Shown in pieces: positions 37,019-44,954 of a stretch of DNA of 64,000 bases. The notes under the pieces were generated by a model that saw nothing but the letters and a program-made list of their open reading frames with translations, was not told the DNA's origin and did not search any database. The first letter of the stretch is position 1; each line of letters opens with the position of its first letter. Source of the DNA: Escherichia coli (GTDB taxonomy: Bacteria; Pseudomonadota; Gammaproteobacteria; Enterobacterales; Enterobacteriaceae); the NCBI RefSeq assembly GCF_030013205.1, contig NZ_CP122648.1. The stretch is one strand, 5' to 3'. Both the position numbers and the translations under genes were made by a program.

Positions 37019-38252
37019 CGCTCTGACCGTTACAAAAAGAGAAAGCGCCCCGTTGCCGGAGCGCCTTTGTGAACGAATAGCCTACTGCGCCATATTGCTT
37101 ACTGTCTACGAGGCAGATTATAGCGTTGTGGTCGCACAGAGTGAAGGCGCTGATCACCGTTACTACAGCACGCCAGAAATGCAGAATATTTTGCTGCAAA
37201 ATGCCGTTGGTCACGCCGTCCGGAAAGCAAAAAATTTTGCTGGTGGCGCGACTGATGCGATTTTGTCAGGTCGCCAGGTGCTGATCAATCTGATGTCTGA
37301 TTTCGTTCTGGATAAAACAAAGGCGACCGCAGAGGGTCGCCAGTGGGTATTACGGCAAATCAAACTTGAACGCATCACCAACAATGCCACATTTGCGGCT
37401 GGTGGGCAATGTGATCAGTCAGATTTGGTTCGTTCCAGGGTTTGCAACGAGAGCTTTTTCCTGCGCTCTTTAAGGAATTTCTCAAGAGCAAACGAACAAG
37501 GTGCGAATCTTTCTGATTCATGCTCTATCTTTCTGCGCCGTCTTTTCCGTGTCGGTGATAATGTTTTGGTCAATTCTTTATCGGTCATTGTGTTGTCCTG
37601 CATAGCAATGCGCCGTAGTTACTCACACCACGGCGCTGATAGTGATTATTCTGATTCTTTGGCCTTCCGGCGCTGTTCATATTTTAATTTGCGTCCACAG
37701 GCATCTAAGACCCATGCGGAAAAATTAGCACTAGGATTAGTTAATTTTTCTTGTTCAACGCTGGCATCAATCCCATCTATAAGCTCATGTGGGAATCGAA
37801 TATTTTTCTTTGCTGATTTGTTGTTTGTGTTACCGCTAGACATTGATGCACCTCACTTAAATGGACTTTATGGGCGCACACAATACAGCAAAAAAAATGA
37901 GATGTTAAGTATTGACATGTGCGCACACATGATTTTAATCTGTGCGCACAGTTTGAGTTTTGTCACTCAAATTAAGCAACGCCCCGCAGTGCTCGCAACA
38001 CATGCAGGGCGTCTAACCACCAACGATAGCAAGAGTATCGAGGTAGCTATGAGAAATCATACCACACACCCGCAAGGGCGGGACTCGCACAACCTGAATA
38101 AATATATCTGGCGTTTTATCGCCCTGAGCACCGCACAACCGCGCGTGATTCACATCGTGGCCACCAGCGAACAGGAAGCACGCCAGCAATCTCCTGATGG
38201 CTGCGTGATGGTATTCGCTGCCCGTATTCGTCAGGGGGTAAGTCATGCATAA
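37011..38252 (+). CDS. doubtful 413-codon open frame, translationally coupled to the antirepressor gene
   Basis: ATG overlaps the upstream stop (ATGTGTAA); first ~130 codons look protein-like, the rest is low-complexity and overlaps two minus-strand ORFs and a promoter/operator region. Confidence 0.25.
   Translation: MCNALTVTKRESAPLPERLCERIAYCAILLTVYEADYSVVVAQSEGADHRYYSTPEMQNILLQNAVGHAVRKAKNFAGGATDAILSGRQVLINLMSDFVLDKTKATAEGRQWVLRQIKLERITNNATFAAGGQCDQSDLVRSRVCNESFFLRSLRNFSRANEQGANLSDSCSIFLRRLFRVGDNVLVNSLSVIVLSCIAMRRSYSHHGADSDYSDSLAFRRCSYFNLRPQASKTHAEKLALGLVNFSCSTLASIPSISSCGNRIFFFADLLFVLPLDIDAPHLNGLYGRTQYSKKNEMLSIDMCAHMILICAHSLSFVTQIKQRPAVLATHAGRLTTNDSKSIEVAMRNHTTHPQGRDSHNLNKYIWRFIALSTAQPRVIHIVATSEQEARQQSPDGCVMVFAARIRQGVSHA
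37415..37603 (-). CDS. small basic hypothetical protein
   Basis: 62-aa Lys/Arg/Glu-rich ORF downstream of the YlcI-like ORF on the same strand. Confidence 0.4.
   Translation of the reverse strand: MQDNTMTDKELTKTLSPTRKRRRRKIEHESERFAPCSFALEKFLKERRKKLSLQTLERTKSD
37646..37843 (-). CDS. YlcI/YnfO-family (DUF3950-like) small protein
   Basis: 65-aa ORF with NIRFPHELIDGID...NFSAWVLDACGRKL, matching the prophage YlcI/YnfO pattern as I recall it. Confidence 0.55.
   Translation of the reverse strand: MSSGNTNNKSAKKNIRFPHELIDGIDASVEQEKLTNPSANFSAWVLDACGRKLKYEQRRKAKESE
37868..37951. promoter_or_regulatory. divergent promoter region with three GCGCACA operator-like sites
   Basis: GGGCGCACACAAT; TTGACA immediately followed by GTGCGCAC (8-bp palindrome); perfect 12-bp palindrome CTGTGCGCACAG. 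Confidence 0.6.
38049..38252 (+). CDS. small hypothetical protein (possibly Icd-like)
   Basis: 67-aa ORF MRNHTTHPQGRDSHNLNKYIWRFIALSTAQPRVIHIVATSEQEARQQ... with SD GAGG 5 nt upstream; the Icd-like assignment is a weak memory-based guess. Confidence 0.4.
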   Translation: MRNHTTHPQGRDSHNLNKYIWRFIALSTAQPRVIHIVATSEQEARQQSPDGCVMVFAARIRQGVSHA

Positions 38253-38807: not shown

Positions 38808-39098
38808 ATGAAAAAGAAAAATTCTGGCTTTACTGCCAGCGGCCTCTCTCGGCCTGAAATCCGCCCCGGTGATATTTTCCGGGACACCAGACGCGGGGGA
38901 CGGGTGGTTATTCGTCACGTTACGCCAGGCAATATCACCTACCGCCGTGAGGCTTACGAATATGACTGCGTAATGCCGCGCCGTCAGTTTGATCGTGATT
39001 TTATTCTGGTGGAAAACAAACAACTGGCAGTGGCGAGACGTGCAGCCACGAATATTAAAAAAATCCGGGCAATGTTGGTTGCGGGAGGTAAGAAGTGA
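38808..39098 (+). CDS. hypothetical protein
   Basis: 96-aa ORF; stop overlaps the start of the replication gene. Confidence 0.5.
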   Translation: MKKKNSGFTASGLSRPEIRPGDIFRDTRRGGRVVIRHVTPGNITYRREAYEYDCVMPRRQFDRDFILVENKQLAVARRAATNIKKIRAMLVAGGKK

Positions 39099-40507
39099 AA
39101 AACGCACCGAGTCTAAAATATCAGCCGAAGGATAAATTCACTGAGGTAATCATTTTTGCCGGGACGGATGCTTACGCCCATGCTCAACACTGGATTGAAA
39201 GTGAAGGACGAAAACACGGCGATAACGTGCCTCCTGTTTACCTGGGGCCAAAGCAACTGGCAGACCTGGCGAATATCCGCATTATTGACGAGAAACGCCG
39301 TTTTGCGCGTGTCTATATCGCGGGGGAGATAGAGCCAATCCAGATCAATACTATCGCTGAAAAGCTGGCGCTGGCTGGCGTACAGGAGGCGAAATTATAC
39401 AAAGGTATCACCGACCAGGAACCGGAGAACTGGCGCGACTACCTGCAACGGATCCGCGAACAGGCTGAGCGCGAAGAAATGCTTACTGACGAGCAATACA
39501 GCCAGCGAAAAACCACGCTACCAATGAGCATTGGATCGGAAGGATACGATTCACAGCTTAGCTATGTGGTTAAGGGTGTGATTCCGGCTAATTCGTTGTG
39601 CAGCACATACGGTGCGAGCGGTTCTTATAAGTCGTTCCTTGCGTGTTCGTGGGCGTGTCATGTTGCTACCGGTATCCCGTGGGGAGGTCGCAGGGTTGTA
39701 CATGGTGCGGTGATGTATGTCGTTGGTGAGGGCGGGATCGGTGTTCCTCGTCGTATCAAGGCATGGGAACTGGTGAACAGTGAGCAGGTGAAAAATCTGT
39801 ACCTGGTAAATCGTCCAATTTTTCCGGCCGCACCGAGTGATGTTGATGAAATGGTTATTGCTGCCCGACAGGTTGAGCAGGAAACGGGTAAACCTGTACG
39901 CATGATTATTCTGGATACTCTGGCGCGTTGCTTTGGTGGCAGCGATGAAAATGATGCGCGGGATATGGGGGCATTTGTCCATGGATGTGACGAACTGAAA
40001 CGGCGTACAGGCGCTACAGTGCTGGTAATTCACCATTCCGGCAAGGATGAAACAAAGGGTGCGCGCGGTTCCAGTGCGTTTCGTGCAGCACTGGATGCAG
40101 AGTACCGGATACGCCGTGAAGGTGCAGGCAGTGAAGCCCTGGTTATCGCATGTACCAAGATGAAGGATGCGGAGGAACTGAAAGAAATGGCTTGCGATTT
40201 GCGCGAGGTTGAGCTTTTCAAGGATGAAGGCGGGGAGTTAATCACGTCATTGGTGCTGGAGGATAAGCCCCGTCCGCCAGTTGAACTGGAGCGCATCGAG
40301 TACGCTGCTAACAAGACAGAGAATCACGTCGCGCTATGGGGCTGTATCCGTTCACGCACGCAACGCGGAGATAAATGCACTATCCCGTTGTTGCGCGATG
40401 ACATGAAAAAGCTGGGGTATGAGATGAAACACTTCCGGCGCTGGCTGTACAAGCTGGAAGGTGACGGCGTAATCACTATTGACGGTGATGACGTGCGCCC
40501 ACTGTAA
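39095..40507 (+). CDS. replication initiator / helicase-like protein (RecA/DnaB-like ATPase)
   Basis: SD GGGAGG then GTG; Walker A-like GASGSYKSF, Walker B-like MIILDTLARCF, IHHSGKDETKGARGSSA; immediately followed by an iteron region. Confidence 0.7.
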   Translation: MKNAPSLKYQPKDKFTEVIIFAGTDAYAHAQHWIESEGRKHGDNVPPVYLGPKQLADLANIRIIDEKRRFARVYIAGEIEPIQINTIAEKLALAGVQEAKLYKGITDQEPENWRDYLQRIREQAEREEMLTDEQYSQRKTTLPMSIGSEGYDSQLSYVVKGVIPANSLCSTYGASGSYKSFLACSWACHVATGIPWGGRRVVHGAVMYVVGEGGIGVPRRIKAWELVNSEQVKNLYLVNRPIFPAAPSDVDEMVIAARQVEQETGKPVRMIILDTLARCFGGSDENDARDMGAFVHGCDELKRRTGATVLVIHHSGKDETKGARGSSAFRAALDAEYRIRREGAGSEALVIACTKMKDAEELKEMACDLREVELFKDEGGELITSLVLEDKPRPPVELERIEYAANKTENHVALWGCIRSRTQRGDKCTIPLLRDDMKKLGYEMKHFRRWLYKLEGDGVITIDGDDVRPL

Positions 40508-40900
40508 AAAGTGGGTAGCAAAAGTGGGGAGAGTGAGCAATGAGAGCCAAAGAAGCTATTTTTCCCCACTTTTAAACCTCTATATATACGCAAAAGTGGG
40601 GAGTGAAAAATTCAAAATAAAACAATGAATTATCAACTCGTGGAATCCCAATTTTTGGCGTGGTGAGAAATTGAAAAAGTGGGTAATAAAAATGGGTAGT
40701 GATGGGTAAATGAAAACTATGTGATGAAAGCAATAGGAAGATTAAAAAACAATCAATGCAATGTATTAACTAAAAATTAACTATTTACCCCACTTTTGCG
40801 TATATATAGAGGTTTAAAAGTGGGGGCTTAAAAATATATTTAAAATCATATTGTTATTAACTTCATAAATTCCCACCGGACAACGAGTGGGGAATTAAAA
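40508..40900. repeat. putative origin of replication: AAAGTGGG(G/T)A iterons plus two inverted 38-bp elements
   Basis: at least 8 iteron copies in both orientations; 40564-40601 is the exact reverse complement of 40788-40825; AT-rich spacers. Confidence 0.7.
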
Positions 40901-40909
40901 AAATTAGGA

Positions 40910-41692
40910 ATGTTAAAAATGAAAACAGAACGTTACATACCTCAGGGTATGACTTACATAGAGCGTGAAGAACTGAAAAGTTTTGCGACATCATGTGGAC
41001 TACGCGGCGATATTCAGAGCCTTACCAGAACTCTGATAATGATTGCGCACTGGATGAGGCAGGGTAAGCCAGTGAGCTTCACAGAATACGCCAGCCAGTG
41101 GACAGAGGCACAGCGCGAACGGGACGACGGTAATCACTCAACGCCTGAAATGGCGAAGCAATGGCCTTTCAGTGGCAAACGGTGCATTTATCCCAGGTGC
41201 TCCGATTACTACCCATACGGAACGGAAAGAGAACATCAGGATGACGAAACGGAAATTAAACACGCAGTAACGGTAATTCTTGCCAAATACCCGTTTTTTA
41301 ACCGCAATGGTCTTGTTCGGTATAGCCGTGACAAGCCATGGGAGCACCCGCTTGATTATGTCTGTTTTATGGAGGAGGCAAAAAGCTGTTTGCGCTGGAT
41401 AAGGGAGAACAATCTTACCGACTGCAAAATTGCATCATTCCCCGGTAAAAATCCGACATCCTACGGCCTGAAACATTGTGTTGAACGGGCGAATCAAATA
41501 AGAGCAAAGGCAAACGGAAAACCCACGGAGCCGATGTATATCACAAACGGTGCTCTAATTGCCGCAATGGTCGCGGCTGGTTATCAGATAAAGCCTGAAG
41601 GAAGGATGAATTGCCGATTCAATATTTCGCGTAAGCAGCTTAAGAGTGTATTGAGCGGGGAATCTTACAAATCAGGAGAGTGGGCGATATAA
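40910..41692 (+). CDS. hypothetical protein (Cys-containing, 260 aa)
   Basis: 260-aa ORF directly after the iteron region; no family recognised. Confidence 0.55.
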   Translation: MLKMKTERYIPQGMTYIEREELKSFATSCGLRGDIQSLTRTLIMIAHWMRQGKPVSFTEYASQWTEAQRERDDGNHSTPEMAKQWPFSGKRCIYPRCSDYYPYGTEREHQDDETEIKHAVTVILAKYPFFNRNGLVRYSRDKPWEHPLDYVCFMEEAKSCLRWIRENNLTDCKIASFPGKNPTSYGLKHCVERANQIRAKANGKPTEPMYITNGALIAAMVAAGYQIKPEGRMNCRFNISRKQLKSVLSGESYKSGEWAI

Positions 41693-41703
41693 CGGCAATA
41701 ACG

Positions 41704-42246
41704 ATGGGGCAAAGCATGACTAAGCTGACCATTAACAGAAAACCTAAAGGCATTTACGGCACGCCGCAGAAAACGACGCAGGCGGCGCAGGAGCAGGATA
41801 AAACCACGTCGGCGCATAAAGTGATGCCCGGTAACCAGAAAGCGCAGCAGAAGCCCACAGGGGCGACACCGTGGCGGCATATGACCAAGCGCCAGCGCAA
41901 AAACCGCAGGCGCGTTAACCGCCTTATCGAACTGTGGCCAGAATTATTCAGCCGGGAAGCACCGAAGCCGCTTAAGGTGGGGATATTTGACGACCTGATG
42001 CAGGATCTCGCCGTCAGGGGGCTGGCATTCGGGCCAGGGGCATTACGTGCGACGCTGGCATCTTATGCGCAGTGTCCGCGCTATTACCGCGCCTTAATGG
42101 CTGGTGGGGTACGCTACGACCTGAAAGGCCAGCCGTGCGGCGAGGTGACACCACAGGAACAACAGGACGCAGAAACGCGGCTGGTGGCGCTGAATGAGAA
42201 GCGCAAACGTCAGCGCCGGGCAGCAAAGGAGAAAACAGGCGCATGA
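41704..42246 (+). CDS. ProQ/FinO-family RNA-binding protein-like
   Basis: central region RLIELWPELFSREAPKPLKVGIFDDLMQDL...RYYRALMAGGVRYDLKGQPCGEV resembles the FinO/ProQ fold; start uncertain (41680 GTG, 41704 or 41716 ATG). Confidence 0.55.
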   Translation: MGQSMTKLTINRKPKGIYGTPQKTTQAAQEQDKTTSAHKVMPGNQKAQQKPTGATPWRHMTKRQRKNRRRVNRLIELWPELFSREAPKPLKVGIFDDLMQDLAVRGLAFGPGALRATLASYAQCPRYYRALMAGGVRYDLKGQPCGEVTPQEQQDAETRLVALNEKRKRQRRAAKEKTGA

Positions 42247-42530
42247 TTCACGACAGCAAAGCGGAAGCACTGGAAGCGCGTGGTCTGTACCGGAGAGCGG
42301 CGGCGCGGTGGGCTGAGGTCATCATGCTGGCGAATGATGACAAGGCACGGGAACAGGCGGCAAAACGTCGCGCGGAATGTATCCACAAGGCAGCACGCCC
42401 ACCAGCAAGGCAGGATAATTTCGGGGAGATGCGCGAAACCATCAGCCGGGCACATGCCGGAATGGGATTACATCAGCCCAATGGTAAGGCATTCAGGAAA
42501 TATCCTGGATCGAAAAATTGCAGTCAGTGA
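42243..42530 (+). CDS. PerC-family transcriptional activator-like
   Basis: 95-aa ORF MIHDSKAEALEARGLYRRAAARWAEVI..., ATG overlaps the upstream stop; the PerC assignment is from memory. Confidence 0.5.
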   Translation: MIHDSKAEALEARGLYRRAAARWAEVIMLANDDKAREQAAKRRAECIHKAARPPARQDNFGEMRETISRAHAGMGLHQPNGKAFRKYPGSKNCSQ

Positions 42531-42535
42531 CGGAG

Positions 42536-42606
42536 GCCGGGATTTTTCCCGGCTTTTTTGTGCCAGTAAAAAGCCCGCAGCCAGAAGTGTTGCGGGCTTT
42601 GTTTTT
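42536..42606 (+). terminator. two tandem rho-independent terminators
   Basis: GCCGGGA-TTTT-TCCCGGC plus T6, then AAGCCCGCA...TGCGGGCTT plus TGTTTTT. Confidence 0.7.
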
Positions 42607-42731
42607 CAGGTGATTGAAGTCAATGGGAAGAACGCGATCATCATGCGTTATCGTTTCATAAATTGCAATGATGTAGATCGTCATTTCAGTTTGTGCAATC
42701 ATAATCGTTGTTTTGTTCAGGAGATATGACT

Positions 42732-42905
42732 ATGAGAAAAGCCAGCGTGAAACCCGTTTTACTCGCTCGTGAGCAGATTGAAGCATTACAGCGCATCCAG
42801 GACGAGGAACGCCGCAATTCTCCGCTGGGGATTGCTCCGAGCATTCATGAGGTCGCCCGGCGTTTAATGCAGCGGGCGCTTTATCCCGTAGAACGTCCGG
42901 CCTGA
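42732..42905 (+). CDS. small hypothetical protein
   Basis: 57 codons from ATG 42732, SD CAGGAGA 7 nt upstream. Confidence 0.45.
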   Translation: MRKASVKPVLLAREQIEALQRIQDEERRNSPLGIAPSIHEVARRLMQRALYPVERPA

Positions 42906-42943
42906 TGGTCGTGATTTTTTGGTGAAAAAGAGAGGTGGTAAAA

Positions 42944-43528
42944 ATGCCAGCAAGCAAAGAAGATTTGCGATTAAAACTGATGGAGGTGGTTAACGCTCTG
43001 TCAGAGTCGCAGGGCAGCACTCCGCAGGAGATTATCGAAATTCTGAATGCGATCCCCGCACAGGATTTCACAAAAGCGGACGAGGATGACGCGAATAAAA
43101 ACATCGTCGCGTCAGTCGAAGATGAATCCTCACTGGCAGAAGCCCAGGCTAAAGCGGATTCCGCATACAGCAATATGGGCCGTCGAGCTCCGGCCCCGTT
43201 TGCTGGTGAAAAGTCGATGGATTACCGCAAGCGTGCATTAATTGGTGCACAGAAGCTGGCTAAAAAATTCAGTGATGTGGATATTCGTTCCGTTTCAGAT
43301 TCTGCAACGCTGGCGGTGCTGGAAGATCAGATTTACCAGGCTGCAAAAGACAGTGTTCAGTGGGCTGTGGAAAATACGCCGGGCTATTTGCGTAAAACCG
43401 TAAGAATGGATGAAGCCGGACGGCGGATTACTGAATATCAGGGGGATCCGAATAACTGGCTTAGTGCTTTCAAAATCCCTCCCCGTCGCCTGGTCAAAAT
43501 TAACACTGCAAGCCTCGCGGGGGCATGA
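42944..43528 (+). CDS. hypothetical acidic protein
   Basis: about 194 aa from ATG 42944 with SD AGAGGTGG; acidic, probably helical. Confidence 0.5.
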   Translation: MPASKEDLRLKLMEVVNALSESQGSTPQEIIEILNAIPAQDFTKADEDDANKNIVASVEDESSLAEAQAKADSAYSNMGRRAPAPFAGEKSMDYRKRALIGAQKLAKKFSDVDIRSVSDSATLAVLEDQIYQAAKDSVQWAVENTPGYLRKTVRMDEAGRRITEYQGDPNNWLSAFKIPPRRLVKINTASLAGA

Positions 43529-43592
43529 AAAACGTGCTGAGTTCAGCCCTGCCGGATTTGGCGGGGCTTATTGCTTATAACCGGATAACATT

Positions 43593-44276
43593 ATGCTTTT
43601 AACAGAAATTGAGGCGGCGAAGCAGATTCGGGACGGACAGCTACCGTCGCCTTATCAGTTTTCCAACATGTGGCTGGTTAACCTGCGTATCACAGGAACC
43701 GGAATGGCCTACCGCGCCGAAGAAAAAGAATTTGTCTGGCGTTCACCGCAAACTTATCTCAATCCGCAGTTCCTGGAACGTTGCGCCGGAGTACCCGTCA
43801 TTATCGACCATCCCGAAAGCAAAACCCTTGAAGACGTGGGCGAACGGTCGCGCATTATTGGCACCGTCATGTTGCCGTATATTCGCGGTGACGAGGTGTG
43901 GGGCGTATGCCGGATTTACGGACAGGAAATCATCGATTACATCCAGAAAGCCCGAGGGGAGGTATCCACCAGTCCGTCGGTTGTGTTTTGTGGTGCCTCA
44001 GGTGGGGCAGAAGTTCCTGATGTAATGGGCGAGGACAATTTTTTTATTGAGGGTACGCCATTTCTTATCGATCACGTTGCGCTCGTGCCGCTTGGTGTTT
44101 GGGATAAGGGCGGGAAACCATCGGGCGTGGAAGTAACAACGCCGACAGCAGAAGAACAGCTTGCCGGAATGGTCCGGGACGTTATTGATGCGGCCTGCAA
44201 GCCAGCTCTGGAAAAACTGGAAGAAATATCCGGGCGGCTGGATCAACTGGAAAAAAACAGAGTGAGTGAATCATGA
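43593..44276 (+). CDS. hypothetical protein
   Basis: 227-aa ORF; stop overlaps the next start. Confidence 0.55.
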   Translation: MLLTEIEAAKQIRDGQLPSPYQFSNMWLVNLRITGTGMAYRAEEKEFVWRSPQTYLNPQFLERCAGVPVIIDHPESKTLEDVGERSRIIGTVMLPYIRGDEVWGVCRIYGQEIIDYIQKARGEVSTSPSVVFCGASGGAEVPDVMGEDNFFIEGTPFLIDHVALVPLGVWDKGGKPSGVEVTTPTAEEQLAGMVRDVIDAACKPALEKLEEISGRLDQLEKNRVSES

Positions 44277-44890
44277 AAATTGCTAAAAACTTAAATCTGA
44301 TTATCCCTGTGCGCACTGAAAAGGGTAATGGCTGGCTCCATGCCACGCCGATCAGCAAAGAGGTGTTTAAAGAGCATTTCTTCATCCTGAGTAAAACCTT
44401 TTCTGCCATTTTTTCTGAAGGTCTTGGTGTTGTTGCGGGTCCGCGCGTTGCCTGCCTTATGCTGGAGAAAATCTCCCGTGACTCCGGTTTATGGGATGGG
44501 GAGAAAGGCATACGTAATACGCTCATAAACGAAATTATTCGCCTGGCAAACCTTGTTTATCCAGTGGAGGGCAAAGGCTACGACACAATCCCTCTCGATA
44601 TGGCGCTGGAGCGTGAAATCGTTGATTTGGACGAAGTGGCGGGTGAACTTGTTTTTTTTACATGCGTCTCGTCGATAAATTCCCCGGAGCAGACGAAGGG
44701 GACTATGGATGCGGTGAATGGAATATGGAGCACTCAATGCTCGTCCTTGAGTCTTACGGAATGGATCGATTCATTGCCGACATTGAAGCCTGCCGTCAGT
44801 TCTGGCGCGACGGCGAACACGTCATCAGCGACATCCTCGACTACTCAGCCGGAGCCGGATTCAGAGACATCTGTGCAGATTCCGGTCTGA
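44273..44890 (+). CDS. hypothetical protein; 3' end uncertain
   Basis: 205-aa ORF with low-complexity Ser/Thr-rich tail; alternative frame 44662-44955 is open across the same region. Confidence 0.4.
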   Translation: MKIAKNLNLIIPVRTEKGNGWLHATPISKEVFKEHFFILSKTFSAIFSEGLGVVAGPRVACLMLEKISRDSGLWDGEKGIRNTLINEIIRLANLVYPVEGKGYDTIPLDMALEREIVDLDEVAGELVFFTCVSSINSPEQTKGTMDAVNGIWSTQCSSLSLTEWIDSLPTLKPAVSSGATANTSSATSSTTQPEPDSETSVQIPV

Positions 44891-44954
44891 ATGTAAAAAC
44901 AGCAGCTCAGTTTCGTGAGCTGCTCAAATTCAAAAATCCCGCAGGAGTATTGTA

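What the first reader, a model, noticed from the sequence alone, without database searches (positions are those of the whole stretch)
40910..41692. Uncharacterised 260-aa Cys-containing protein immediately after the origin
No family was recognised for this ORF. Its position between the origin and the regulator pair, with a stop overlapping the next gene, suggests co-expression with the ProQ/FinO-like and PerC-like genes. It is a candidate accessory or helper-interaction protein.
Basis: seen in the sequence. Interest (0 to 1): 0.4.

Follow-up and report, generated by a model that had tools for sequence, protein, structure and literature searches.

The report
Unannotated two-module gene after satellite origin
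The ORF is a real, conserved but optional gene of an E. coli phage satellite, built from two small protein modules that also occur alone in many mobile elements and have no assigned function; its job is still unknown, most likely nucleic-acid binding in the replication module.

Summary
The ORF at 40910-41692 (+) is real. It is under purifying selection (dN/dS about 0.12) and gives a confident AlphaFold model (pLDDT 85). The likely start is ATG 40919, giving 257 aa.

It lies in a PICI-like satellite inserted in yifB/comM. It follows a RepA-type helicase and an iteron origin. It precedes ProQ/FinO and PerC genes, which end in tandem terminators.

Pfam, NCBIfam, PADLOC and PDB sequences give no match. 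Fold searches give only weak winged-helix resemblance.

The new result is its architecture: two fused modules, each also found as a stand-alone small protein.
- **N-module (residues ~11-104):** seen here in enterobacterial satellites, near-neutral, related to phrog_4935.
- **C-module (residues ~108-250):** basic, matches phrog_9576, carries an invariant S-Y-x-x-K-H-x-x-E ... N-G motif, and is found across several phyla.

The gene usually sits just after a primase/helicase and origin. The C-module also occurs beside methyltransferases, restriction-modification genes and PARIS AriA.

The slot is variable: near-identical islands lack the gene. Iterons differ between loci while the protein stays similar, so it is not an iteron-specific initiator.

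Best guess, at low confidence: a dispensable nucleic-acid-binding accessory factor of the replication/early module. Counter-defence is the main rival.

The parts
40910..41692 (+). The ORF in question: 260 aa from ATG 40910, or more likely 257 aa from ATG 40919. The stop TAA is at 41690-41692.
   Evidence: ORF list and sequence. PGAP CDS WP_106661607.1 in an identical copy. dN/dS 0.12. AlphaFold2 pLDDT 84.9.
40940..41221 (+). N-module, residues ~11-104. Motifs: MTYxERExLK ... MIAHWMRQ ... FxEYAxxW ... WPxxGxRxI. Helical, with near-neutral to acidic relatives. It also exists as stand-alone 90-120-aa proteins.
   Evidence: In the representative search, many hits cover only profile positions ~3-100. 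Alignment A3. A stand-alone 98-aa version occupies the same post-origin slot. Median pI 6.3. 9 of 27 relatives match phrog_4935, but the window copy does not at E <= 1e-3.
41231..41659 (+). C-module, residues ~108-250. A basic helix-helix-helix-helix-hairpin-helix domain that resembles a winged helix. It also exists as stand-alone 110-165-aa proteins in several phyla.
41459..41485 (+). Invariant motif S184-Y185-G-L-K188-H189-x-V-E192 at the start of a helix. With N213-G214 and N234 it is the most conserved polar cluster of the C-module.
   Evidence: S, Y, K, H and N213 are invariant in 56 of 56 diverse sequences, and E in 55 of 56.
40506..40906 (.). Replication origin of the island. AAAAGTGGG(G) iterons lie on both strands. 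A perfect 38-nt inverted repeat (40564-40601 and 40788-40825) flanks an AT-rich core. GC content is 33%.
40813..40840 (+). Promoter-like site (TTTAAA-16-TATATT) inside the right arm of the origin, about 80 nt upstream of the ORF. It is a candidate promoter only.
   Evidence: The number of such sites in the region is not above the shuffled expectation.
39095..40507 (+). RepA-family (AAA_25) replicative helicase gene immediately upstream of the origin.
   Evidence: Pfam AAA_25 at 3.5e-44; phrog_2850 at 2e-220. PGAP name.
41716..42246 (+). ProQ/FinO-family gene, using the PGAP start. An alternative GTG start at 41680 would overlap the ORF's stop.
   Evidence: Pfam ProQ at 7.8e-24.
42243..42530 (+). 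PerC-family gene, overlapping the ProQ stop by 4 nt.
   Evidence: Pfam PerC at 5e-32.
42532..42600 (+). Two tandem intrinsic-terminator hairpins (42532-42557 and 42570-42600), each followed by a U-run. They close the putative ORF-ProQ-PerC transcription unit.
   Evidence: Fold of -40.5 kcal/mol, z = -5.28. The second hairpin was also found by the scan.

Best explanation
The ORF encodes a dispensable accessory protein of the satellite's replication/early-gene module. It is a fusion of two autonomous modules.

The C-module is a small, basic domain that resembles a winged helix. Its invariant polar cluster (S184, Y185, K188, H189, E192, N213, N234) and its conserved basic positions lie before and on the motif helix, in the beta-hairpin and in the last helix. 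I infer that it binds nucleic acid, most likely DNA, in a way that is not specific for the island's iterons. The invariant cluster fits contact with an invariant feature such as the backbone, an end or a structure, or with a universally conserved partner.

The N-module was seen here in enterobacterial satellite loci. I infer that it is an adaptor that tethers the C-module, or other C-terminal extensions in relatives, to a partner present during satellite replication. That partner could be the neighbouring SSB or ProQ-type products, the replisome or a helper factor.

Shown here: the gene is real, it has two modules, it sits in the post-origin slot in many elements, it is optional, and it does not track iteron sequence. 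Inferred: nucleic-acid binding, the adaptor role and any effect on replication.
For: **Two modules.** In an exhaustive profile search, hits fall into N-only (~90-120 aa) and C-only (~110-165 aa) proteins. The C-module modelled alone gives pLDDT 88 and pTM 0.85. The two halves show discordant identity between loci: L003 has N 80% and C 57%, while L002 has N 74% and C 79%.

**Position after a replicase and a non-coding gap, with unrelated replicase families:**
- AAA_25 helicase in the window.
- DUF927 in L002 and L020.
- DUF5906/D5 primases in L003, L007, L017-L019 and the P4-like locus L022.
- A BT4734-like protein and an AAA_25 protein in Bacteroidota elements L012 and L013.
- The primase of Streptococcus prophage 315.2.
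- The DUF5906 and prim-pol module of a Staphylococcus plasmid, where two small genes separate it from the C-module gene.

Iterons were confirmed in four of these gaps.

**Neighbours.** In enterobacterial satellites the neighbours are SSB and/or ProQ/FinO, then PerC.

**Charge.** The C-module is basic: median pI 9.0, with 80% of members above 7.5. Positions 176, 188, 193, 196, 226, 228 and 242 are mostly K/R.

**Fold.** The best structural matches, though weak, are nucleic-acid-binding winged-helix domains: GntR, RFX, Cdc6 WH, the P4 origin-binding domain, PriRep1, RosR, ArsR and ROQ.

Against: The helix that would be the winged-helix recognition helix (NGALIAAMVAAGY) is almost wholly hydrophobic. 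Any DNA contact would therefore be non-canonical.

Invariant S/Y/K/H/E/N residues across phyla would fit an enzyme or a ligand pocket as well as they fit nucleic-acid binding.

Several C-module genes are not near replicases. They sit beside C5 methyltransferases, a type II restriction-modification pair, a type I restriction-modification/PDC-S14 island, PARIS AriA, and in a Mu-like phage.

Near-identical islands lack the gene, so it is not needed for the basic replicon. No experiment or paper bears on it.
Confidence: 0.33

Rival explanations
1. Counter-defence or defence-associated factor. The C-module would be a small enzyme, sponge or inhibitor that mobile elements use against host immunity, for example restriction or PARIS-type systems. 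The satellite would express it early from the post-origin operon.
For: Stand-alone C-modules lie next to C5 DNA methyltransferases (L045, L009). They also lie in a type I restriction-modification island beside the PADLOC candidate PDC-S14 (L041-44), and directly after PARIS AriA (5e-71) in a Shewanella prophage accessory locus between the integrase and the cI-like repressor gene. The invariant S-Y-K-H-E-N cluster is conserved across phyla. The slot shows presence/absence variation typical of accessory 'arms-race' genes.
Against: No PADLOC model matches the protein. The module is rare on plasmids, in 7 of 72,556 records, unlike classic leading-region anti-restriction genes. It is basic, not an acidic DNA mimic. 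In this small, non-random sample, most contexts examined are replication modules. Adjacency to defence genes can simply reflect co-residence of mobile-element cargo.
Confidence: 0.25
2. Winged-helix transcription regulator that controls the ORF-ProQ-PerC operon, or host or helper genes, like the neighbouring PerC-type and RgdR-type regulators of these islands.
For: Weak winged-helix resemblance to GntR, ArsR, RosR, CodY and PerR. Basic charge. It is the first gene of an operon that also encodes regulators. In two loci it sits where a restriction-modification controller protein might sit.
Against: Sequence-specific regulators do not normally keep the same polar residues invariant from Streptococcus phages to Bacteroidota and Planctomycetota. 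The putative recognition helix is hydrophobic. No fold hit is significant.
Confidence: 0.12
3. Helper-phage interaction or interference protein. It would be the functional counterpart of the genes found after the origin in other PICIs, such as RppA in EcCICFT073. The N-module would contact a helper protein.
For: In PICIs the region after the origin usually holds interference and packaging genes (PMC6739421; PMC6092414). The N-module was found here in enterobacterial satellite loci, one of them on a plasmid-borne remnant. In relatives it is joined to varied extensions. Islands with the gene often carry podovirus-like internal-virion or ejection genes (DUF2213, SLT, DUF2824), while the lambda-type EcCICFT073 and EDL933 islands carry a different small gene in the slot.
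Against: No similarity to any PDB chain, RppA included if it is deposited. The C-module occurs in a Streptococcus prophage and in non-satellite elements. No helper is known for this island, and nothing was tested.
Confidence: 0.12
4. Iteron-specific origin-binding initiator, or specificity partner of the upstream replicase.
Against: Homologues 66-76% identical sit next to unrelated replicases: AAA_25, DUF927 and DUF5906. Their iterons are unrelated: AAAAGTGGGG, GTATCCGCCC and ACCTATACCA. Islands with the same kind of origin-to-ProQ arrangement lack the gene.
Confidence: 0.03

Closest known systems
phrog_9576 (with phrog_17839): PHROG families of phage proteins, function unknown
   Same: The C-module (residues ~146-251) matches phrog_9576 at E = 2.5e-9. 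Of 56 diverse relatives, 47 match it (best 1e-80) and 34 also match phrog_17839. Members share the ~130-aa size and the S-Y-x-x-K-H ... N-G motif.
   Different: The window protein carries an extra ~100-aa N-module that typical members lack. The PHROG families have no annotation, so membership says nothing about function.
phrog_4935: PHROG family, function unknown
   Same: 9 of 27 stand-alone N-module relatives match it, best E = 1.2e-8.
   Different: The window's own N-module does not reach E <= 1e-3. The relationship is through relatives only.
Winged-helix DNA/RNA-binding domains (GntR/ArsR/RFX type; Cdc6/Orc WH; phage P4 alpha origin-binding domain 1ka8; PriRep1 7pds)
Post-origin accessory genes of Gram-negative PICIs (RppA/c1503 of EcCICFT073; the 83-85-aa + SSB + PerC cluster of EcCICFT073 and the O157:H7 island)
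   Same: Same island type and same general position after the pri-rep gene and origin, on the same strand, with PerC downstream (PMC6092414, PMC6739421).
   Different: No detectable sequence relation to the 85-aa gene (BLAST E 4.4; hhalign probability 0.3%) or to any PDB chain. RppA is a TerS-binding packaging redirector, and nothing here suggests that activity.
RgdR (ECs1581/c1493), the small PICI-encoded regulator of type III secretion
   Same: It is encoded on the same family of islands. The window ORF happens to contain 'RGD' at residues 32-34.
   Different: RgdR is a 99-aa protein with pI 10 (PMC3378721). The paper gives the CFT073 variant as c1493. By size and position this appears to be the DUF4222 gene just upstream of the replicase. 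Its counterpart in the window would be 38808-39098, not this ORF.

Membership tests
phrog_9576 (phage protein family, unknown function) | Significant match to the family HMM | tested here: met
   E = 8.5e-9 for the whole ORF and 2.5e-9 for the C-module alone, covering profile positions 41-132 of 136. 47 of 56 aligned relatives also match.
phrog_4935 (phage protein family, unknown function) | Significant match to the family HMM | tested here: inconclusive
   The window N-module gives no hit at E <= 1e-3. 9 of 27 aligned relatives hit, best 1.2e-8.
Winged-helix DNA-binding domain superfamily | Significant structural superposition on a solved winged-helix domain | tested here: inconclusive
Winged-helix DNA-binding domain superfamily | Solvent-exposed polar or basic recognition helix (third helix) | tested here: not met
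   The third helix is N-G-A-L-I-A-A-M-V-A-A-G-Y. The family consensus is NGAFIAAA, with essentially no charged residues.
Iteron-binding replication initiator or origin-specificity factor | Protein sequence co-varies with the iterons and replicase it serves | tested here: not met
   Homologues 66-76% identical lie next to AAA_25, DUF927 and DUF5906 replicases with unrelated iterons.
Iteron-binding replication initiator or origin-specificity factor | Required component of the replicon (always present with it) | tested here: not met
   L026 and L025 have an origin gap followed directly by 98-100% identical ProQ-PerC, without the gene.
RppA-type packaging redirector of E. coli PICIs | Sequence similarity to RppA (c1503) or to a solved structure of it | tested here: inconclusive
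   No PDB chain matches at E <= 10. EcCICFT073 has no homologue of this ORF. I did not confirm that RppA is in the PDB copy, and I did not compare directly with the c1503 sequence.
Known anti-phage defence proteins (PADLOC-DB 2.0) | Match to any defence-system HMM | tested here: not met
   0 families at E <= 0.01.
Gram-negative PICI (context of the gene) | Integrase at one end, then same-strand regulatory and replication genes, followed by an iteron origin | tested here: met
   Integrase at 34380-35609; small HTH gene at 35977-36165; AntA, Icd-like and DUF4222 genes; AAA_25 helicase; iterons. The AlpA identity of the HTH gene was not tested with an HMM.
Gram-negative PICI (context of the gene) | Size about 15 kb, its own attachment site, and no full set of phage structural or lysis genes | tested here: met
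   About 14.7 kb between the two halves of yifB/comM. Only DUF2213 and an SLT-domain protein look phage-derived.
Gram-negative PICI (context of the gene) | Induction, replication and packaging by a helper phage | not testable with these tools
   This needs experiments, and no helper is known for this island.

The most novel reading that the evidence does not exclude
The C-module, with its S-Y-x-x-K-H-x-x-E ... Y-I-x-N-G ... N-x-F-N-x-S signature, would be a previously undescribed functional domain. At least 597 clusters at 50% identity match the full two-module profile, and C-module hits make up roughly two-thirds of the best 150. None has a Pfam model. Phages, satellites and integrative elements of Proteobacteria, Bacteroidota, Bacillota and Planctomycetota would use it for one conserved task at incoming or replicating DNA. 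That task could be a new replisome or DNA-end accessory activity, or a new counter-defence enzyme. Enterobacterial satellites would have coupled it to a lineage-specific adaptor, the N-module.
Probability: 0.3. Interest if true: 0.55.

Novelty: new member of a known kind. Interest (0 to 1): 0.38.

Why it matters
The region after the origin in phage satellites is where helper-manipulating and cargo genes sit, yet most of those genes in Gram-negative islands are unnamed.

This work shows that the slot holds a combinable pair of modules. One of them is a widespread mobile-element domain with a strictly invariant motif, no Pfam model and no annotation. That gives a concrete handle: point mutants of S184, Y185, K188 and H189, and stand-alone versions from several phyla.

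If the domain proves to be a replication accessory or a counter-defence activity, it would name hundreds of 'hypothetical' phage and satellite genes.

As it stands, the finding is an ordinary uncharacterised accessory gene, not a surprising system.

Tried and rejected
**Family and structure searches**
- Pfam, NCBIfam and PADLOC gave no hit for the ORF.
- Pfam also gave no hit for 30 stand-alone or extended relatives. The only exception was two sub-threshold N-terminal Glyoxalase_8 matches, in P0119 and P0279.
- PDB sequence searches with the protein and with both module profiles found nothing at E <= 10.
- The AlphaFold-database library was not available.

**Specific identities considered and rejected**
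- **RgdR**, prompted by the RGD tripeptide: RgdR is a 99-aa protein, apparently the DUF4222 gene upstream of the replicase.
- **Homology to the 85-aa post-origin gene of EcCICFT073, or to the 78-aa gene of L003:** none was detectable.
- **A structural zinc site (C92/H118/C160/H189):** these residues are invariant only in the fused enterobacterial family. C92 and H118 are not conserved in the stand-alone modules.
- **An HUH/rolling-circle 'YxxK' catalytic motif:** there is no conserved HUH motif, and the model has no central beta-sheet.
- **A plasmid leading-region gene:** only 7 plasmid records carry it.

**Other dead ends**
- No known RNA family lies in or around the ORF. Only sub-threshold hits fall on the terminators.
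- The scan with the enterobacterial alignment returned only close relatives.
- Two blind fetches of CFT073 regions missed the island before it was found.
- Literature searches for the accessions, the PHROG identifier and FinO with satellites found nothing relevant.

Full report
**1. The observation**

Window 40910-41692 (+) is an open reading frame of 260 codons with 8 cysteines. Three lines of evidence show it is a real gene.
- Against the 76%-identical homologue in E. coli 2014C-3338 (L002), dN is 0.148 and dS is 1.22, a ratio of 0.12. Against more distant homologues, synonymous sites are saturated while proteins remain alignable.
- AlphaFold2 with a 19-sequence alignment gives mean pLDDT 84.9 and pTM 0.77.
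- NCBI's PGAP pipeline annotates it as hypothetical protein WP_106661607.1 in ETEC1748, which has an identical copy.

The window itself is identical to ETEC4079 over 42500-49000.

The likely start is ATG 40919, giving 257 aa. AGGA at 40905-08 abuts ATG 40910 but lies 10 nt before ATG 40919. PGAP and most homologues start at that Met.

**2. Context**

The gene lies in a ~14.7-kb island that splits yifB/comM. Window coordinates were transferred from the PGAP table of L001. The gene order is:
- integrase, 34380-35609
- small HTH gene, 35977-36165
- AntA, 36218-37018
- Icd-like gene
- DUF4222, 38808-39098
- RepA-family AAA_25 helicase, 39095-40507
- non-coding origin
- this ORF
- ProQ/FinO
- PerC
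- tandem terminators
- DUF2213 and a 679-aa lytic-transglycosylase-domain protein

This is the layout of Gram-negative phage-inducible chromosomal islands (PICIs; PMC6092414).

The origin (40506-40906) has AAAAGTGGG(G) iterons on both strands. A perfect 38-nt inverted repeat flanks an AT-rich core, and GC content is 33%.

The ORF, ProQ/FinO and PerC share a strand. The first terminator-like hairpins on that strand come after PerC: 42532-42557 and 42570-42600, at -40.5 kcal/mol and z = -5.3.

The claimed stop/start overlap with the next gene depends on a GTG start at 41680. PGAP uses ATG 41716. Co-transcription is therefore plausible but not shown.

**3. What the protein is**

No curated family matches: Pfam, NCBIfam and PADLOC all return nothing. 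No PDB sequence matches.

A word-indexed search finds only 22 relatives, all enterobacterial and all 'hypothetical'.

An exhaustive profile search of 1.84 billion representatives finds 597 hits at E <= 1e-3. These hits split cleanly in two:
- proteins of ~90-120 aa that cover only profile positions ~3-100
- proteins of ~110-165 aa that cover only positions ~110-247

The ORF is therefore a fusion of two modules that each exist alone.

Further support for two modules:
- The C-module modelled by itself with 56 diverse sequences gives pLDDT 88.0 and pTM 0.85. Its elements run helix, helix, helix, helix, hairpin, helix.
- The two halves show discordant identity between loci. L003 has N 80% and C 57%, while L002 has N 74% and C 79%. 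This indicates recombination between the halves.

*N-module (residues ~11-104).* Its conserved pattern is MTYxERExLK ... MIAHWMRQ ... FxEYAxxW ... WPxxGxRxI (A3). Relatives have a median pI of 6.3. 9 of 27 relatives match phrog_4935, a family of unknown function, but the window copy does not. Relatives carry varied N- or C-terminal extensions with no Pfam match.

*C-module (residues ~108-250).* S184, Y185, K188, H189 and N213 are invariant in 56 of 56 sequences, and E192 in 55 of 56. Y210, G214, I217, A219, G224 and N234 are nearly invariant. It is basic, with median pI 9.0. K/R residues are enriched at positions 176, 180, 193, 196, 226, 228 and 242. It corresponds to phrog_9576 (47 of 56 members) and phrog_17839 (34 of 56), both of unknown function. 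A second indexed search with the module profile returned 292 proteins at E <= 1e-5. None of the 120 listed has a Pfam domain or an informative name.

**4. Where the gene and its modules occur**

In this small, non-random sample the commonest setting is directly after a replicase and a non-coding gap.
- **Fused form:** after AAA_25 (window, L028), DUF927 (L002) and DUF5906-type primases (L003, L033-35, and L007 in Xenorhabdus).
- **N-only (98 aa):** after a D5-type primase-helicase and ahead of SSB-ProQ-PerC (L017-19).
- **C-only:**
  - after DUF927 (L020)
  - after a P4-like alpha-type primase and before an Ogr/Delta gene (L022)
  - after a BT4734-like protein and after an integrase/HTH_17/AAA_25 set in Bacteroidota (L012, L013)
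  - after the primase of Streptococcus prophage 315.2, with a 260-bp gap (L021)
  - in the DUF5906 and prim-pol module of a Staphylococcus plasmid, two small genes downstream of the prim-pol gene (L039)
  - in a satellite remnant on a Klebsiella plasmid, before SSB-PerC (L040)

The gaps in L002, L003, L017 and L020 each contain their own iterons: GTATCCGCCC, ACCTATACCA, GGTGAACAnTT and TTGAACCAAG. 'Immediately after the origin' is therefore a recurrent feature.

The iterons change with the replicase while the protein stays 66-76% identical. This rules against an iteron-specific role.

Other C-only genes lie elsewhere:
- next to C5 methyltransferases (L045) and a methylase/REase-like pair (L009)
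- in a type I restriction-modification island beside the PADLOC candidate PDC-S14 (L041-44)
- right after PARIS AriA in a Shewanella prophage (L046/47)
- near an IS element (L024)

A 364-aa fused N+C relative (P0165) lies in a Mu-like phage (L036).

**5. The slot is variable**

- L026 and L025 carry ProQ-PerC that is 98-100% identical to the window's, but go straight from origin to ProQ.
- EcCICFT073 and the related island in an O157:H7 genome carry an unrelated 83-85-aa gene plus SSB and PerC.
- By megablast, 147 of 5,426 complete E. coli genomes match some part of the ORF, and 11 match over at least 80% of it.
- The gene is rare on plasmids, at 7 of 72,556 records, and among deposited phages, at 5 records, all Streptococcus.

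**6. Interpretation**

*Shown:* a real, optional, two-module gene of the post-origin operon. Its C-module is a widespread, basic, winged-helix-like domain with an invariant polar cluster. It is frequently placed after a replicase and origin. It is independent of iteron sequence.

*Inferred, at about 0.33 confidence:* the C-module binds nucleic acid without iteron specificity, or binds a universally conserved partner. The N-module acts as a lineage-specific adaptor. Together they serve the replication/early module alongside SSB and ProQ/FinO.

*Main rival, at about 0.25:* a counter-defence or defence-associated activity. The restriction-modification, methyltransferase and PARIS neighbourhoods suggest this, as does the enzyme-like invariant cluster.

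*Lesser rivals:* a transcription regulator (0.12) and a helper-interaction or interference protein (0.12). An iteron-specific initiator is disfavoured (0.03).

**7. Comparison with what is known, and novelty**

The protein belongs to PHROG families that have no function, and to the known class of PICI accessory genes. It is not RgdR, a 99-aa protein that appears to correspond to the DUF4222 gene (PMC3378721). No similarity to RppA or to any other solved protein was found.

No paper in the searchable library mentions it or its close homologues. The EcCIMP1 study, on an island that appears to be of the L003 type, singles out only other hypothetical genes downstream of the primase.

I rate it a new member of a known kind, with moderate interest. 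The two-module architecture and the unannotated, motif-bearing C-module are worth a bench test, but nothing here is surprising for a satellite accessory gene.

Noticed in passing
window 40506-40906: The satellite origin has an unusually clean architecture. A perfect 38-nt inverted repeat (40564-40601 and 40788-40825) flanks a 186-nt AT-rich core. Each arm carries two inverted AAAAGTGGGG iterons, and further iteron copies lie outside the arms.
   Followed up: partly
window 38808-39098: A DUF4222 gene lies directly upstream of the replicase and overlaps it. By position and size it matches the c1493/RgdR-type small regulator of type III secretion described for O-island 51 and EcCICFT073. I did not compare the sequences directly.
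   Followed up: partly
window 37011-38252 and 37646-37843 (-): The 413-aa + strand ORF here is probably not a gene as a whole. PGAP annotates only its last ~120 codons as an Icd-like protein. A 65-aa minus-strand ORF at 37646-37843 sits where related islands have a YlcI/YnfO-family gene. It is unannotated in ETEC1748. The window also differs from ETEC1748 by a 90-bp indel somewhere between 37018 and 37887.
   Followed up: no
window 42935-47573: The cargo downstream of PerC looks like podovirus internal-virion or ejection genes rather than lambda-type capsid genes. It comprises a 197-aa protein that PGAP names NUDIX hydrolase without Pfam support, a DUF2213 protein, a 205-aa protein and a 679-aa lytic-transglycosylase-domain protein. 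ETEC1748 has the same island but lacks the ~3-kb SLT segment.
   Followed up: partly
L046 4371-7641 and L047 (Shewanella prophage): A stand-alone C-module gene (129 aa) sits between a PARIS AriA homologue (PADLOC 5e-71; 507 aa, longer than the 373-position model) and a 367-aa protein with no PADLOC match, where AriB would be expected. This may be a variant PARIS locus or an anti-PARIS neighbour.
   Followed up: partly
L041-L044 (metagenome contigs; protein P0241, indexed in 474 blocks of the collection): A very common C-module gene is embedded in a type I restriction-modification island. Its upstream neighbours are DUF1016/YhcG, HsdR and the PADLOC candidate PDC-S14 (DUF4357). It is followed by a 410-aa protein with a weak CapP-like match and by an M48 peptidase.
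   Followed up: partly
L008 10001-10667 (Enterobacter sp. 10-1) and protein P0022: This copy of the gene is broken into two frames. Its N-module part is fused in annotation to an 'i-spanin Rz'-named 192-aa protein. It is probably a decayed copy or a misannotation.
   Followed up: no
L026 2501-4306 versus window 39095-39470: The first ~375 nt of the window's RepA-family helicase gene are 95-98% identical to the start of a different 'DNA primase family' gene in other islands, while the rest is unrelated. The replicase genes of these islands appear to be mosaic, sharing an N-terminal segment next to DUF4222.
   Followed up: no
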